DNA from: Mytilus edulis
Lineage: Eukaryota
Direction: 5' to 3'
NCBI RefSeq assembly: GCF_963676685.1
Contig: NC_092355.1
Location: 63,922,001 to 63,986,000 of the forward strand
DNA: 64,000 nt
Positions within the stretch are counted from its first letter, which is position 1. Every line of letters starts with the position of its first letter. Shown in pieces: positions 30,001-60,000 of this stretch. Made by a program: the position numbers.

Positions 30001-33000
30001 ATACCTCACTGAAATTTTAACAAATGACAGAACACATAGAAGCAAATGTGCATGTGCAGTTTCCCATTATAAGTGTAATACCACCCTTGATTAATCCCTA
30101 TTAGCCTTTGTTAAATTTGCAGTTTAAAAAAACTGTGTTGAATTTATGTTTATTTCAAATACTGGAATACTTGGCATGAGCAAAGTTTTATTCGGTCCAG
30201 TACTATAGAAAAAATTGCACACGACATTTTATTGCATATAAGACAATAGCAATTACTTTAAATTATCCAATCAAACTTTCACCAAACTTTTACCCTGTGT
30301 GCAAGCTGTAGTTATCATGTAGCCGCAAGTTTTCAAAATATTCTATAGAAGCACAAATAAAAAAATGGCGCTTAGAAAAACCAAAGACATATGTTTATGA
30401 CTCACAAAAGTGTATTGCAATGAAATGCAGGATTAATTTCTGACAAATTCAAGGGAATATATATGTTTTCGACCCTTTTACATATGCAACCGAGTGTGAC
30501 GTATTACTATTCCGAAGAATAACACCTACAAATGGTTAAGTGCAAAAGATTACGGTCATGTCTATAATTTTGAAGAAAAAAAAAACCGTGTCAAATTTAG
30601 AAAAAAAGTAAGATCACACAAATACTGAAACTCCGAGGAAAATCTAGTCGGAAAGTCACTACGCACATGGCAAAATCAAATGGCAAAACACTTGACAAAT
30701 GAAAAGGAAGTGAATATCTGCTTCTAATTCCACTAACATTTAGAACAACGAATAAAGTACATTAAACATTTTGCTGCATAAAAAAATATAAGTGATTACT
30801 GACTTATACACAATCCTTTTGAGTTTTAAGTTAAATAATTTGAAATGTTATCGTTCCATATTCTGAACTTACATAGTTAAACTAATTCTAAGAGTTCAAT
30901 TGTCATTGTTGTAGCGCTAAGGGACATTGTTCGAAACAGTAGTGAAATACATATTTTAAGTTGGAGAAAAAAGACTTCAATTATTGTACATTTTTCTACA
31001 ATGACTGTTGTATCTTTATTCACAACAGAAGAATTTAACATCGTTCAGAGCAGTATTGTCTAGTTGTCCTTGGTAAGCTTCAATTTTGGTCTGTAAACCA
31101 CATATGGCACTGTTCACCGCACAAGAGTCGCTCCATTCCCCATAAGTGCCATATCGTCCAATTCCAGGAGGATAGCTAAGGTCAACGACATCAAATTCAT
31201 CTTTGAAATATCGGCATCTGAATCTGAGGTAATTTGCACCAGTACTATCATAACTAGCCTATCAAACAAAAGAGATTTCATACCAGTTAGAATTAATTTA
31301 TTGAAATCGGAGCATCTGTAAATTATTTTCTCCTTAACCGTTGGTCAAAAGGTTGTGTACTGTAATGTTCGCTACCTTCGCGATTGAAAATGAACGCGAA
31401 TATAAATTGACGTTGATATGTAACACTTGGATCTTTCTTGATTAAGCCATTTTCAGTACATTTTCAATCGCCGCGTCATGGTCCAAAACAAAACATGTTA
31501 TCATATCAACCTAAAATGTTCGCGAACATATGTCGATTTACAGAAGTTGACAGTGCCATGACTTTTGATATAGATTTCCAAAACTTTGAAGATTGGAAAC
31601 GATATTAGTGCATTGCATAAGTTTTGGTGTTTCCTTTTTAAGAAGGTACAAGAATTAAGGTTTGGAATCGAAATATATAGAAATTTTAGGATGTTAAAAT
31701 TAAATGAACCTTAATCAAATAGGCAAATGTTTAAGTCTTATTTACGTGGAATCTGAAAACATGTATCTTATATACTATTAATGTGTAAAAAAGTAAACTC
31801 ATACTTAAAAGCAAAACAACAAGAATACAGAAATCATATGAAAATCCAAAACCGGAAGTCTTTCATCACATGGCACATCCAAAACCTCAAACAGATGAAA
31901 CGATTGGAAAACAATTTTTATATTTCCGATTTGCTTTTTGACATGTCTCGGTATGTTGTACAAACAACATTAATATATTTATTTTTGATATTTCTTTAAT
32001 GATTTCGGTTGGATAATCTGTTAAGTCTTACCGTTTGTTGTTCAAATAATTATAAAATTTTACTTCCATAACATCTTTATCAAGAAAATTGTTTGGACGA
32101 GTATTGTGAAAATAATTGTATAACGTTCGATCATGCATGTTAGTTACGTAAGTGCGTCACTGTTTGTGATATCCTTTAGTATCTATCGTTGATGGACTAT
32201 GTTCGATGTTGTTCTGTGCTTTGCATGTTGTGTCGACTATGCTATTATTTGATTAAGCATTTCACTTTGATGATTATTCCTGCGTGTGTTTGTGCTGTAT
32301 TTCCGCCACTAAGAGTTGTCATTTGAGCAATATTTTGAACATTGTCATAACGCGGGAGGTTTGGCTACCCTTTACACCAGGTTTTACCCACCATTGTTGT
32401 CTTGAAATGTCCTGTTGCAAGTCATTTGTCATAAAATAATTCGTGTCCTTGTATGTTACCGTTTGCTTTTTGTTGTACTTCAGTGTTCCTGTCGTTCCCT
32501 TGTTTTCCTTGTATAGTTGATGTGTTTACCTCGGTTTTAGTTTGTTACCCAGATTTTTTTCTCTCGCTCGATTTATGACTTTTGAACTAGTGTTGCCTCT
32601 ATTTGGCATGTTTGGTACAGACATTTCCTTATCGAAAAAGTTCATCTTTGGATACTTTTAAATGTCGGTTGAAAACATTGTATTTCGAAAATTATTTTGA
32701 ACTTTTTTGACTTTTTTCTTGTGTATCACAGTGTATATTTTCAATTTTTGGTATATTACATACATATTGTATTTTTGTATTTTATATGTCATTTATGTAC
32801 AACGCCATACATTATATATTGTATATGTAGAAATAGGCGTTTAATTAAGTTTTCGTGTTTCATGTTTCATCTGTAAGTCCGATACGTTGCAACTTTTAAA
32901 ATAGAACTGCATTAATGTGTTCCCTAAAAAACCAGGTTCAATCCACCATTTTCTACATTTGAAAATGCCTACACCAGGAATATGACAGTTGTTGTTCATG

Positions 33001-57000: not shown

Positions 57001-60000
57001 TGTACAAATTGATAAACACACATTTAGCAATTTCATACGTCCGAAGCTCTTATATTGATTTACCCTTATCAAAAACGCCTAAAGTCAAATTTTCTATGGC
57101 CGAGGTTGTATGAGAACCGAAAGAGATAAAGATCTTAATGACAATAAAATACATGAAAATTAGTTATATCCATCTAAGGTCAACTTTGACTGAGGGTGTA
57201 ACACCATAGTTTGTTTATGATTTCAAAACTTATAAACAAACAACTTTTAACAGTTTGTTTTAATTCATTATAAAGCATATATTCATTCAGCAGACGTATA
57301 GATTCAGTGCCGTAAAACTTAAAAACATGACGTTAAATAATTGAAAGCGTCCGAAATTATTTTCAAAAATTGTTCAGGAACGTTCAAAGGAAAAAAAAAC
57401 TCCGGAGATTCTATACTTATATGTGCACCAAAAATTCACTATTCTTAGAAGGATTAAAAAGAACAGGTTTTACTCACCGACATGGGTACGATCTCTTTGT
57501 ATGAGGTTTGTACCAGATATATAGTCAAAATCCGAATGACAGCATCCGGACTGATCTAGTTTACACTCTCGAGAAGAGGTTATATACGTTATTTCACAAC
57601 ATCTCTCTCCAAATTTCAAACATAGTGCCGCACATTGAGTTTGAGACATTTTCCCCAGAGATGTGAGAGCCACTGACCGAATTTTCTTATTCTTCTCTAC
57701 TAAGAACAATTCCTGTCTCGTTTGGAAATTCCCAGCAAACATTTCTGCATTTTGAAAATTTTGAAAAACAAAGCTATATATCAAAGCAATAACATATACT
57801 TGCATTTCTAAAACAACGAAAAACTGTATATAAACTTAAAATCGTTAAAAGTAAATACTAAACAGCATTTATATTTGAATCCATTTGATAACTGTTATTA
57901 ATTTTTCTGACTTTTTTTGTGAAATGCATTTGCTTTTAAACACGACAGTTCAATAAGTTATATAAAACATTTTTTCTTTATTAGTCTGGGGAGTAATAAC
58001 TACCTACGTAACATCGATCAATGGATTACAAAAGTACGACTCATTGTATTCCATACTTCAAAACAGGGGAAACTTCATCCTCGCTTCGCTACATTGACTT
58101 TAATAATTTAGCGTAGCAACATCAGCATTGTTTAGGAGTTTGATTGTAGTTAAACATTTTATATTTTTATCAATTTGATGTAATTAATTACTCTGCTTGT
58201 TTTTGTCAAATTAATTTACTTTTAAATGCGATTGCTGACATTATTAAAGATATATGAAACATGGTTTATCTATATGTCTCCGAAGTAATAATTGCTACCT
58301 CACTTCAACATCAATGGATAACAAAGGTACGACTTATTATATTCCACGCTACAAATACAAAACAGTGGATAACTGTAATTGATATTTCTAATGCATTTTT
58401 TTTCAAATTAATTATTTGCTTTTAAACACTCCAGCTGTAATTTATTTTTCTTTATTGGTCTCCAGAGTAATAATTGTCTACGTTCCCCATCATCAATTGA
58501 TTACAAAGATAAAACTGATTCTATTCCAAAATACAAAACAGTGGAAACGCTACGTTGACTTTTATAGTTTAGAGCAACAAACATACCATAGTTTAGCATA
58601 GCAACGTCCCCATTGTTTGGGAGTTTGCACTACGCAAAGTTGACCTTATTAGTGTAGCGTAGCAATGTCCCCATTGATACACAGTTTGTACTACGCTTCG
58701 TTGACTTTATAGGTTTTGCATAGCAAGTGTCAATATTGTTTGGGAGTTTGCACTACGCTTCATTGTCTTTAAAAGTTTAGCGTATCAACGTACCCATTGT
58801 TTTGGGAATTTGCACTACGCTTCCTTGACTTTAATAGTTTTGCATAGCAACGTTAGTATTGTTTGGGAGTTTGCACTTCGCTTAGTTGACTTTAATAGTT
58901 TACCATAGCCACGTCTCCATTGTTAAAGATTTCGTTGACTTTATTAGTTTAGCGTTTCAATGTCCCCATTGCTCAGGAGTTTGCACTACGCTTCGTTTAC
59001 TTTAATAGTTTAGCGTAGCAACCCCCTCATTGTTTTGGAGTTTGCACTACGCTTCGTTGACTTTATTAGTTTATCATATCAACGTCCCAATTATTTGCAC
59101 TACGCTTCGTTGAATTTATGAGTTTATCATAACAACGTCCCAATTGTTTGCACTACGCTACAGTGTCTTTATTAGTTTAGCATAGCAACGTACCCATTGT
59201 TTTGGAGTTTGCACTACGCTTCGTTGACTTTATTAGTTTATCATAACAACGTCCCAATTGTTTGCAATACGCTTCCTTGAGTTTATTAATTTATCATAAC
59301 AACGTCCCAATTGTTTACACTATGCTACGTTGTCTTTAATAGTTTAGCGTTTCAACGTCCCCATTGCTCAGGAGTTTGCACTACGCTTCGTTTACTGTAA
59401 TAGTTTAGCGTAACAACGTACCCATTGTTTTGGAGTTTGCACTACGCTTTGCTGACTTTATTAGTTTATCATAACAACGTCCCAATTGTTTGCACTACGC
59501 TACGTTGTCTTTATTAGTGTAGCATAGCAACGTACCCATTGTTTTGGAGTTTGCACTACGCTTTGTTGACTTTATTAGTTTATCATAACAACGTCTCAAT
59601 TGTTTGCACTACGCTTCGTTGACTTTCATAGTGTAGTATACATAGCAACGTCCTCATTGTTTAGAAGTTTGCAATATGCTTCGTTGACTTTATAAGTTTA
59701 ACATAGCAACGTCCCCATTGCTTCGGAGTTTGCACTACGCTTCGTTGACTTTGATAGTTTAACATAGTAACGTCCCCATTGCTTGTGAGGTTGCACTACG
59801 CTTCGTTAACTTTAATAGTTAAGCATAGATATATCACCATTGTTTAGGAATTTGCACTCTGCTACGTACGCTACCTTTTCTAAGTTTAGCATAGCAACGT
59901 CCCTATTGTTTAGAAGTTTGCACTACGCTTCGTTGACTTTGATATTTTAGCATAGCAACGTCCCCATTGTTTTGGAGTTTGCACTACGCAACGTTGACCT

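What the first reader, a model, noticed from the sequence alone, without database searches (positions are those of the whole stretch)
31016..57805. Tandem secreted PAN/Apple-like + VMO1 beta-prism fusion genes
Seen: both genes encode a signal peptide, an ~85-aa module on its own phase-1 exon (C-x3-C..CC.ITY..C.LD.SGCC) and a complete three-repeat VMO1 domain. Established: canonical VMO1 proteins are single-domain beta-prism I proteins, and PAN/Apple domains mediate protein or glycan binding. Inference: exon shuffling produced a two-module secreted lectin-like or extracellular (mucus, egg coat, immune) protein that was then tandemly duplicated. I know of no functional description of this architecture.
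Basis: partly seen in the sequence, partly recalled or inferred. Interest (0 to 1): 0.72.

Follow-up and report, generated by a model that had tools for sequence, protein, structure and literature searches.

The report
Mussel PAN-plus-VMO1 tandem gene pair
Two neighbouring mussel genes each encode a probably secreted protein that joins a small PAN-type binding module to an egg-coat-type (VMO1) sugar-binding domain; public annotations name only the VMO1 half.

Summary
Two intact four-exon genes lie head-to-tail on the minus strand (31016-36590 and 51875-57805). All six introns are GT-AG, and the coding lengths are 283 and 286 codons. Exons 2-4 together cover positions 2-167 of the 167-position Pfam VOMI profile. 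Exon 4 matches chicken VMO-I, 1vmo, at E 4.5e-17.

Exon 1 carries the start codon, a 12-residue hydrophobic leader and an 84-residue, 7-cysteine module, and ends in phase 1. The module is a divergent PAN domain but not the six-cysteine Apple subtype. Its PAN_1 scores are below the curated cut-off. However, its profile retrieves a true 4xPAN_1 protein at E 1.6e-7 among 1.84 billion proteins, and its AlphaFold model (pLDDT 80) matches plasminogen, HGF, factor XI and SML-2 PAN domains.

Near-identical 283- and 286-aa models already exist for Mytilus edulis and M. coruscus, named "VMO1 homolog" or left unnamed, with only PF03762 annotated. Relatives come from five Mytilus species.

Exon-mediated fusion is plausible but unproven. 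The lectin-like function is an inference. The exons were searched one by one and never joined. Interest is modest.

The parts
36272..36590 (-). Gene A coding exon 1. It holds the ATG (36590), a hydrophobic leader (about residues 1-22) and an 84-aa divergent PAN module (residues 23-106, 7 Cys). It ends in phase 1 at a GT donor.
   Evidence: Searches give the boundaries. PAN_1 scores 17.2-18.7 bits, below the 21.4 cut-off. AF2 model pLDDT 80.3. Foldseek top hits are PAN/apple domains. 98% identical to residues 1-106 of public P0001.
34658..34758 (-). Gene A exon 2 (101 nt, phase 1 in, phase 0 out). It is the start of the VOMI domain.
   Evidence: VOMI profile positions 2-31, E 3.2e-4. Boundaries. 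Matches P0001 residues 107-141.
33890..34078 (-). Gene A exon 3 (189 nt, phase 0/0), the middle of the VOMI domain. It contains an internal GT (33973-33972) at the position where the relative P0020 leaves the exon.
   Evidence: VOMI profile positions 37-93, E 3.1e-8.. P0020 sequence.
31016..31258 (-). Gene A exon 4 (240 nt coding plus stop TAA at 31018-31016): the end of VOMI repeat 2 and all of repeat 3.
   Evidence: VOMI profile positions 98-167, E 9.6e-19. 1vmo_A at E 4.5e-17 with three internal stretches.
57478..57805 (-). Gene B coding exon 1. It holds the ATG (57805), a leader 3 residues longer than in A, and an 84-aa divergent PAN module with 7 Cys. It ends in phase 1.
   Evidence: PAN_1 16.0 bits. 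100% identical to residues 1-109 of public P0021.
54776..54876 (-). Gene B exon 2 (101 nt), the start of the VOMI domain.
   Evidence: VOMI profile positions 2-31, E 1.2e-3..
53747..53935 (-). Gene B exon 3 (189 nt), the middle of the VOMI domain. The internal GT at 53830-53829 is the point where public 'isoform X2' (P0021) leaves the exon.
   Evidence: VOMI profile positions 26-93, E 1e-10..
51875..52117 (-). Gene B exon 4 (240 nt coding plus stop TAA at 51877-51875), the end of the VOMI domain.
   Evidence: VOMI profile positions 97-167, E 4.8e-18..
37713..43899 (.). PIF/Harbinger-type DNA transposon between the two genes, about 1.1 kb upstream of gene A's ATG. It is bounded by a 31-nt inverted repeat. 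It is not part of the genes and is described only.
   Evidence: Inverted repeat 37713-37743 / 43869-43899, 90% complementary. DDE_Tnp_4 79.7 and 37.1 bits, and Myb_DNA-bind_5 21.0 bits against a cut-off of 21.7.
37935..40100 (+). Transposase gene of that element (HTH plus DDE_Tnp_4). Its reading frame is not continuous: the matching pieces lie in several open frames. I did not resolve whether introns or disruptions separate them.
58589..62287 (.). 61-bp satellite array of 61.6 copies, about 0.8 kb upstream of gene B's ATG. It is a neighbour, not part of the gene.

Best explanation
These are two old tandem paralogues of a mussel (Mytilus) gene family. Each protein has three parts in order:
- a cleavable hydrophobic leader;
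- an 84-residue, disulfide-rich, divergent PAN-superfamily module (beta-beta-alpha-beta-beta-beta);
- a complete three-repeat VOMI (VMO-I type) beta-prism domain.

Shown here: the gene structure, the two domain identities, the intactness of both copies and purifying selection on both.

Inferred from the family properties of its parts: the protein is secreted and acts as a two-site binding protein. The beta-prism would hold a carbohydrate, as proposed for chicken VMO-I. The PAN module would supply a second glycan or protein contact. Together they could cross-link or tether glycosylated targets in mucus, on an egg envelope, in haemolymph or on microbes.

The module/VOMI boundary coincides with a phase-1 intron. 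The architecture therefore most likely arose when a 5' exon encoding leader plus PAN came to be spliced onto the VOMI exons, followed by duplication.
For: Gene models:
- GT-AG at 6 of 6 introns, with identical phases in both copies.
- The exon translations tile public proteins P0001 (283 aa) and P0003/P0021 (286/258 aa) without gaps, at 94-100% identity for exons 1, 2 and 4. The exon-3 alignments run past the exon ends and give 80-88%.

VOMI domain:
- Profile positions 2-167 of 167 are covered by the three exons, and exons 3 and 4 pass the 25-bit cut-off on their own.
- 1vmo_A at E 4.5e-17, with matches to all three internal repeats.
- Eight Cys columns are shared with a vertebrate VMO1.

PAN module:
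- PAN_1 is the only recurrent non-VOMI family among relatives: 11 of 21 members at E<=0.1. 3 of the 15 exhaustive-search hits pass the PAN_1 cut-off.
- The exon-1 profile finds a 4xPAN_1 protein (127.8 bits to PAN_1) at E 1.6e-7 in a library of 1,835,955,588 proteins.
- AF2 model: pLDDT 80.3, pTM 0.71.
- 34 of the 39 Foldseek rows listed are plasminogen, HGF/NK1, factor XI/prekallikrein, the SML-2 lectin or LAPP, with TM 0.51-0.71 normalised to the query and prob 0.95-1.00.
- ESM Atlas nearest clusters are PAN, score 0.94.

Constraint on both copies: no stops in either; dN/dS 0.40 for the module and 0.30 for VOMI, at dS about 0.5.

Leader: uncharged run at residues 3-14. Residues 1-21 have pLDDT below 50 in the paralogue model.

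Functional analogy: chicken VMO-1 is reported as heparin-binding and antibacterial, with a carbohydrate cleft (PMC4904793, abstract and passages). SML-2, a PAN protein crystallised with a galactose analogue according to its PDB title, is among the fold hits at 22-24% identity.
Against: PAN assignment:
- PAN_1 scores for the two window modules (16.0-18.7 bits) are below the curated 21.4.
- 0 of 298 Foldseek matches reach E<=0.001; the best is 3.7e-3.
- hhalign against the single 4xPAN protein gives only 19% probability, E 1.2e-3.
- The exon-1 profile finds nothing among PDB sequences at E<=10.

Gene product:
- I saw no transcript or protein evidence, so the exon 1-exon 2 junction rests on splice signals, phase, conservation and other groups' gene predictions.
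- No signal-peptide predictor was run, and the leader has no basic residue before the hydrophobic run.
- The full-length paralogue model is poor (pLDDT 56.1), so nothing can be said about how the domains sit together.

Confidence: 0.72

Rival explanations
1. The same architecture, but the protein is a structural or matrix component (egg envelope, mucus or another extracellular layer). It would be built into the layer through the PAN module and intermolecular disulfides, and would not act as a soluble recognition lectin.
For: - VMO-1 is a major structural constituent of the hen egg's outer vitelline membrane and binds ovomucin (PMC4904793).
- A surfclam study groups VMO1 with reproduction genes (PMC10869415, passages).
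- The module has an odd number of cysteines, 7, which would allow an intermolecular disulfide.
Against: - A hard-clam study lists a VMO1 among immune-associated genes with higher expression in haemolymph than in extrapallial fluid (PMC8902148, passage).
- With the extra VOMI cysteine the mature protein has 16 Cys, so no cysteine need be free.
- No localisation data exist for the Mytilus proteins.
Confidence: 0.3
2. The N-terminal module is an unrelated lineage-specific cysteine-rich domain that only resembles PAN by chance or convergence.
For: - Pfam scores are sub-threshold.
- Foldseek E-values are weak.
- hhalign probability is 19%.
- Three extra cysteines are not found in PAN_1.
Against: - HMMER E 1.6e-7 to a protein with four PAN_1 repeats, in an exhaustive search.
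- Relatives P0017 (22.0 bits) and P0019 (23.0 bits) pass the PAN_1 cut-off.
- The four core cysteines align.
- The listed fold hits are dominated by PAN/apple proteins.
- The Atlas neighbours are PAN clusters.
Confidence: 0.06
3. Exon 1 and the VOMI exons are not one transcription unit, and the 283/286-aa models are prediction artefacts repeated by similar pipelines. Exon 1 would belong to a short separate product.
For: - Databases hold 13 short ORFs (106-170 aa) carrying leader plus module only.
- No RNA evidence was available to me.
Against: - 9 of those 13 short ORFs carry Gly-Lys or Gly-Glu 21-23 residues after the terminal Cys pair. That is the position where the window's own read-through ORFs translate the phase-1 donor.
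- One of them (P0030, 111 aa) is collinear with the window through the donor into the intron. They therefore look like unspliced ORF calls on genomic contigs.
- Phase 1 out of exon 1 matches phase 1 into exon 2 in both copies.
- Both halves show dN/dS below 1.
- The module-plus-VOMI architecture recurs in models named for 5 Mytilus species.
Confidence: 0.06

Closest known systems
[quoted passage not shown]
   Same: - The VOMI beta-prism domain with three internal repeats.
- Eight conserved cysteine columns.
- The C-terminal Cys-Cys.

   Different: - The vertebrate proteins run from signal peptide straight into the VOMI domain (alignment). The mussel proteins place an 84-aa PAN module between the two.
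- The mussel proteins carry one extra cysteine in repeat 2: Cys in 11 of 14 rows, His in the vertebrate row.
PAN-superfamily modules: plasminogen PAp, the HGF N domain, factor XI/prekallikrein apple domains, leech anti-platelet protein, the Sarcocystis muris lectin SML-2
   Same: - Predicted beta-beta-alpha-beta-beta-beta fold, with TM 0.51-0.71 normalised to the query.
- The four core cysteines align with those of a PAN_1 repeat.
   Different: - Sequence identity is only 9-24%, and Pfam scores are below the cut-off.
- There is no N-terminal cysteine for the Apple-type outer disulfide.
- Three additional conserved cysteines are present: the second residue of a central Cys-Cys and a terminal Cys-Cys.
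- None of those proteins is joined to a VOMI domain.
Rotifer secretory lectins with two VOMI domains plus a C-terminal ricin-type domain (PMC8878817)
   Same: A lophotrochozoan secreted protein in which VOMI is combined with a second, structurally different binding module. [quoted passage not shown]
   Different: The partner domain there is a ricin beta-trefoil at the C-terminus, with duplicated VOMI. Here it is a single PAN module at the N-terminus.
Jacalin-like beta-prism I lectins (banana lectin, Calsepa)
   Same: Weak fold resemblance of the VOMI part (E 0.06-0.4 with a low-confidence model). The carbohydrate-binding analogy is made in the literature.
   Different: There is no sequence relationship. 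Only a fold-class analogy applies, so this is not a membership claim.

Membership tests
VOMI / VMO-I (Pfam PF03762) | A match to the VOMI profile over its whole length, above the curated score | tested here: met
   Tested exon by exon; the joined model was not run.
- Exon 4: 68.5 and 66.2 bits, above the 25-bit cut-off.
- Exon 3: 34.3 and 42.4 bits, above the cut-off.
- Exon 2: 21.3 and 19.4 bits, below the cut-off on its own.
Together the exons cover profile positions 2-167 of 167. Public full-length relative P0008 scores 142 bits over positions 3-167.
VOMI / VMO-I (Pfam PF03762) | Three internal homologous repeats | tested here: met
   Exon 4 aligns to three separate stretches of 1vmo_A: residues 14-58, 68-111 and 122-163.
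VOMI / VMO-I (Pfam PF03762) | The conserved cysteine framework of vertebrate VMO1 | tested here: met
   8 Cys columns are shared with vertebrate P0029, and the mussel proteins have 1 extra column. That these form four disulfides in 1vmo is recalled, not tested.
VOMI / VMO-I (Pfam PF03762) | Beta-prism fold | tested here: inconclusive
   Only a paralogue from outside the window (P0024) was folded full-length. Its mean pLDDT is 56.1. The top Foldseek hit is nevertheless 1vmo_A, at E 6.6e-5 with 34% identity.
PAN superfamily (Pfam PAN_1 PF00024) | Score at or above the curated PAN_1 gathering cut-off (21.4 bits) | tested here: not met
   Gene A scores 17.2 bits (18.7 for the mature module) and gene B scores 16.0 bits. 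Relatives P0017 (22.0) and P0019 (23.0) pass, and P0006 (21.3) just misses.
PAN superfamily (Pfam PAN_1 PF00024) | Significant sequence link to undisputed PAN domains | tested here: met
   The profile of the two window modules hits P0013 at E 1.6e-7 for a library of 1.84e9 proteins, with 4 matched stretches. P0013 scores 127.8 bits to PAN_1. 11 of 21 family members hit PAN_1 at E<=0.1.
PAN superfamily (Pfam PAN_1 PF00024) | PAN fold: a helix packed on an antiparallel sheet | tested here: met
   AF2 model with pLDDT 80.3 and strands/helix in the order E-E-H-E-E-E. 34 of the 39 listed Foldseek rows are classical PAN/apple proteins, with prob 0.95-1.00. No E-value reaches 1e-3.
PAN superfamily (Pfam PAN_1 PF00024) | The four core cysteines (two nested disulfides) | tested here: inconclusive
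   C55, C59, C66 and C78 (gene A numbering) align with the four Cys of a PAN_1 repeat of P0013 (low hhalign probability).
Apple domain subtype (six Cys, with an outer N-to-C disulfide) | A cysteine near the N-terminus paired with one at the C-terminus of the module | tested here: not met
   The mature module has no Cys before C55. The definition of the subtype is recalled.
PIF/Harbinger DNA transposon (the intergenic element) | DDE_Tnp_4 transposase, a second Myb-like gene and terminal inverted repeats | tested here: inconclusive
   - DDE_Tnp_4 at 79.7 bits: met.
- Myb_DNA-bind_5 at 21.0 bits against a cut-off of 21.7: just below.
- A 31-nt inverted repeat, 90% complementary: present.
- Target-site duplication: not examined.

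The most novel reading that the evidence does not exclude
The exon encoding leader plus PAN module is a reusable 5' cassette in mussel genomes. Evidence:
- The same exon type recurs in loci only 25-36% identical to each other, with the same seven cysteines.
- 9 of the 13 short database ORFs show the translated footprint of a phase-1 donor at the same place.

On this reading, its capture of the VOMI exons created a Mytilus-expanded family of two-site binding proteins. In those proteins the module's seventh cysteine would pair with a lineage-specific ninth cysteine in the VOMI domain (7 + 9 = 16), locking the two binding domains together. That would be a fairly recent, still traceable case of exon-mediated invention of a lectin-like architecture.
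Probability: 0.2. Interest if true: 0.55.

Novelty: new variant of a known kind. Interest (0 to 1): 0.35.

Why it matters
If the reading is right, public annotation names only half of a family of mussel secreted proteins. Databases list them as plain "VMO1 homologs" with PF03762 alone, yet each carries a second binding module.

Mussels are known for large, variable repertoires of recognition proteins (background knowledge). A lineage-restricted PAN+VOMI combination adds one more, and it has a traceable genomic origin: an intron sits exactly at the domain boundary.

It is also a practical caution. Short 'module-only' proteins in large sequence collections are probably unspliced first exons.

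The finding does not open a long-standing question. Both domains are well known and the genes are already deposited.

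Tried and rejected
1. Stand-alone module proteins as the source of the fusion. I entertained this, where 9 of 15 hits were short and lacked VOMI. I rejected it as unproven because the short ORFs look like read-through of the exon-1 donor.
2. The exon-1 profile against PDB sequences gave 0 hits at E<=10. Exon 3 alone against PDB sequences gave 0 hits at E<=1.
3. A full-length model of paralogue P0024, made to see the inter-domain geometry and to test the 7+9 cysteine idea, had pLDDT 56.1. 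That is too poor to use.
5. Hunt for the virus-like stretch announced by the operators:
   - The only mobile-element families found were HTH_38, DDE_Tnp_4 and Myb_DNA-bind_5, in the six intergenic frames scanned.
   - 40 further open frames of 75 aa or more gave only weak, sub-cut-off chance matches and no viral family.
   - 122 of the 127 open frames of 56-74 aa gave 0 families at E<=0.001. The 5 dropped frames had been scanned.
   - 8 further short frames gave 0 families.
   - Rfam at gathering score gave 0 matches, and no tRNA was found.
   - What I did find, and only described: a PIF/Harbinger transposon, a repeated-element ORF and two hammerhead-like motifs.
6. The literature search with 'VOMI' as a word start matched 'vomiting' and was useless. 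One search failed on term length and was reworded.
7. Dating the duplication against the M. coruscus protein P0002 was ambiguous. P0002 is closer to A in exons 1-2 but equidistant from A and B in exons 3-4, so I make no claim.

Full report
**What is there**

The window has no N and is AT-rich, with GC 0.27-0.40.

I aligned each exon region of the two copies and located the boundaries. This gives two four-exon coding models.
- Gene A: 36590-36272, 34758-34658, 34078-33890, 31258-31019, stop at 31018-31016. Total 849 nt, 283 codons.
- Gene B: 57805-57478, 54876-54776, 53935-53747, 52117-51878, stop at 51877-51875. Total 858 nt, 286 codons.

All 6 of 6 introns start GT and end AG. The phases are 1, 0, 0 in both genes.

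A conserved AG preceded by a pyrimidine run sits 2 nt upstream of each ATG. An untranslated upstream exon is therefore likely, though this is an inference.

The joined search and fold of the window's own models were left out.

**Independent support for the models**

A search with exon 1 among longer proteins returned 4 proteins.
- P0001: 283 aa, M. edulis, 'unnamed protein product', 98% identical to gene A exon 1.
- P0002: 283 aa, M. coruscus, 'VMO1 homolog'.
- P0003: 286 aa, M. edulis, 'VMO1 homolog'.
- P0004: 255 aa.

Their sequences change exon at exactly my junctions. The window's exons tile them end to end. P0021 (M. edulis 'isoform X2') is 100% identical to gene B exon 1. The window is therefore Mytilus edulis or something very close to it, and these genes are already deposited.

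In the precomputed annotation only PF03762 is attached to them.

**The VOMI half**

Exons 2, 3 and 4 of both genes match Pfam VOMI at profile positions 2-31, 26/37-93 and 97/98-167 of 167. Exon 4 scores 68.5 and 66.2 bits, and exon 3 scores 34.3 and 42.4 bits. Exon 2 scores 21.3 and 19.4 bits, below the 25-bit cut-off on its own.

Exon 4 hits chicken VMO-I (1vmo_A) at E 4.5e-17, with three stretches that reflect the internal three-fold repeat. Exon 3 alone found nothing among PDB sequences.

The first VOMI profile position lies five residues after the exon 1/exon 2 junction, so the intron marks the domain boundary. The two phase-0 introns cut repeats 1 and 2 at equivalent places, and repeat 3 is uninterrupted (read).

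A full-length model of a paralogue encoded elsewhere (P0024) was poor, with pLDDT 56.1. It still found 1vmo_A first at E 6.6e-5, followed by jacalin-like lectins at weak E-values.

**The N-terminal module**

Coding exon 1 encodes three things:
- the initiator methionine;
- an uncharged run at residues 3-14;
- an 84-residue module with seven cysteines.

Evidence that the module is a PAN domain:
- PAN_1 is the only Pfam family it touches, but below the cut-off: 17.2 bits (18.7 for the mature part) in A and 16.0 in B, against 21.4.
- A profile of the two modules, run exhaustively over 1,835,955,588 representative proteins, found only 15 proteins at E<=0.001. Among these, 5 carry VOMI and 9 are short ORFs without VOMI. 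The last, P0013 (666 aa, E 1.6e-7, four matched stretches), scores 127.8 bits to PAN_1. 3 of the 15 pass the PAN_1 cut-off.
- 11 of 21 members of the family alignment hit PAN_1 at E<=0.1.
- An AlphaFold model from that alignment has pLDDT 80.3 and pTM 0.71, with strand-strand-helix-strand-strand-strand order.
- Foldseek against the PDB gave 298 matches at E<=10 and none at E<=0.001; the best was 3.7e-3. 34 of the 39 listed rows are plasminogen, HGF/NK1, factor XI/prekallikrein, the SML-2 lectin or leech anti-platelet protein, with TM 0.51-0.71 normalised to the query. That these are PAN/apple proteins is my recollection of the families, not something the tool returned.
- The ESM Atlas nearest clusters are PAN clusters, score 0.94.

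Weaker or negative points:
- hhalign to P0013 was weak (probability 19%, E 1.2e-3). It does align C55, C59, C66 and C78 with the four PAN cysteines, which leaves C67, C85 and C86 as extras.
- The exon-1 profile found nothing among PDB sequences.
- There is no cysteine N-terminal to C55, so the Apple-type outer disulfide is impossible.

My conclusion is that the module is a divergent PAN-superfamily module and not an Apple domain in the strict sense.

**Family and distribution**

A search with exon 4 among longer proteins gave 15 hits. 14 are from Mytilus (edulis, galloprovincialis, coruscus, trossulus, californianus) and 1 is a vertebrate VMO1.

In the alignment, the vertebrate protein goes from signal peptide directly to VOMI, whereas the full-length mussel models carry the module. 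Five 50%-identity clusters combine module and VOMI.

I could not test whether the architecture exists outside Mytilus. 

**The short 'module-only' proteins**

Thirteen short ORFs of 106-170 aa, from unnamed sources on contigs of about 0.8-1.5 kb (one cluster reaching 323 kb), carry leader plus module alone.

They should not be read as stand-alone proteins.
- The window's own exon-1 ORFs run through the donor into the intron. They give 117- and 111-aa ORFs with Gly-Lys or Gly-Glu at offset 21 after the terminal Cys pair.
- 9 of the 13 short ORFs have Gly-Lys or Gly-Glu at offsets 21-23. For three of them the offset was counted from the central Cys pair, because the terminal pair is substituted.
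- P0030 is collinear with the window through the donor.

This suggests that the phase-1 exon boundary is conserved in loci only 25-36% identical to these genes. It leaves open what those exons splice to.

**Duplication and constraint**

The copies lie in the same orientation, with starts 21,215 bp apart. Similarity of 70-83% runs collinearly from about 29000-36725 to about 49158-57945.

197 of 282 aligned codons encode the same residue. dS is 0.51-0.56. dN/dS is 0.40 for the module and 0.30 for the VOMI exons. Neither copy has a stop. Both copies are therefore old and constrained. Timing relative to speciation was ambiguous.

**Cysteine count**

The module has 7 Cys. The VOMI part has 9, of which 8 are shared with the vertebrate VMO1. 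The ninth is Cys in 11 of 14 rows and His in the vertebrate row. The total of 16 allows, but does not show, an inter-domain disulfide.

**Surroundings**

- A PIF/Harbinger-type transposon lies between the genes at 37713-43899. It has a 31-nt terminal inverted repeat, a DDE_Tnp_4 transposase gene whose frame is not continuous, and a Myb-like piece.
- A 3.7-kb satellite of 61-bp units begins about 0.8 kb upstream of gene B.
- The operators state that the window holds a virus-like stretch. I found no match to a viral protein family in any open frame examined and no Rfam family at gathering score. The mobile or viroid-like items I saw are listed under Noticed in passing and are only described.

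**How it probably works**

Shown here: the architecture, the intactness of both copies and the constraint on them.

Inferred from what is known of the parts: secretion and two-site binding.
- Chicken VMO-1 is a heparin-binding, antibacterial beta-prism protein with a carbohydrate cleft, although its function in the egg is called unknown (PMC4904793, abstract and passages).
- PAN modules bind proteins or glycans. The SML-2 entries among my fold hits are complexes with a galactose analogue according to their PDB titles.
- Bivalve papers mention VMO1 only in passing: among immune-associated haemolymph genes in a clam (PMC8902148) and among reproduction genes in a surfclam (PMC10869415).

**Novelty**

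- Searches for the phrase 'vitelline membrane outer layer' with Mytilus gave 4 papers, none about these genes.
- VMO1 with 'PAN domain' gave 0 papers.
- VMO1 with bivalve terms gave 1 relevant paper.
- VOMI with PAN as whole words gave 14 papers. I opened one of them (PMC4224354), and it does not describe the combination. The other 13 I saw only as titles in the listing, and they looked irrelevant.
- I therefore found no printed description of PAN+VOMI in the searchable library. Subscription journals and supplements were not searchable.
- A different multi-domain VOMI architecture is published for rotifers (PMC8878817).

**Verdict**

The finding is real and correctly read. It is a modestly interesting, lineage-restricted new combination of two known domains in genes that are already deposited but only half annotated.

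Noticed in passing
window 58589-62287: A satellite array of 61-bp units, 61.6 copies with 77% matches, starts about 0.8 kb upstream of gene B's ATG. It accounts for the GC rise and the strong AT skew there.
   Followed up: partly
window 26616-26714 (+): Two adjacent matches to the type I hammerhead ribozyme model (RF00163) lie inside a 49-bp tandem repeat. They score 21.9 and 23.4 bits, below the gathering score of 34, with E 0.025 and 0.0078. The resemblance to a hammerhead core was first noticed from a recalled motif. Described only.
   Followed up: partly
window 37713-43899: A PIF/Harbinger-type DNA transposon lies between the two genes, about 1.1 kb upstream of gene A's ATG. It has a 31-nt inverted repeat at both ends. 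Its transposase reading frame is not continuous. It could sit in gene A's promoter or 5' intron.
   Followed up: partly
window 53829-53830 (gene B) and 33972-33973 (gene A): An internal GT sits in exon 3 at the point where the public models P0021 ('isoform X2', M. edulis) and P0020 (M. galloprovincialis) leave the exon. Using it removes 28 residues of VOMI repeat 2 in frame. It may be a real isoform or an annotation artefact; I could not tell.
   Followed up: partly
proteins P0009-P0012, P0015-P0019, P0030-P0033 (not in the window): These short 'module-only' proteins in large collections look like first-exon ORFs read through a phase-1 donor: 9 of 13 carry the Gly-Lys or Gly-Glu footprint. This is a caution for anyone counting small secreted PAN proteins.
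   Followed up: yes
gene A and gene B, exon 1 and exon 3: The PAN module has an odd number of cysteines (7). The mussel VOMI domain has a ninth cysteine that is absent from the vertebrate sequence, which makes 16 in all. An inter-domain disulfide is possible but untested.
   Followed up: partly
protein P0013 (not in the window): A 666-aa protein of unknown source has four PAN_1 repeats and a C-terminal match to prokaryotic phospholipase A2 (25.6 bits, below the 29.4 cut-off). It is the closest undisputed PAN protein to the mussel module.
   Followed up: no
window 5066-5542 (-): A 159-aa open frame has no Pfam hit. Its nearest ESM Atlas clusters are animal 'hypothetical proteins', a third of whose members carry HTH_animal (PF26215), with scores 0.96-0.97. 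It is probably a fragment of a repeated element.
   Followed up: partly
window 7403-7604 and 15095-15304: Two arrays of a related 54-bp unit, 3.7 and 3.9 copies, have internally palindromic units. This is possibly a small non-autonomous repeat family.
   Followed up: no
window 1-29000: No open frame of 56 aa or more in this half matched a Pfam family above its curated cut-off. No tRNA and no Rfam family at gathering score was found anywhere in the window. The two VMO1-type genes are the only recognisable host genes in the 64 kb.
   Followed up: partly
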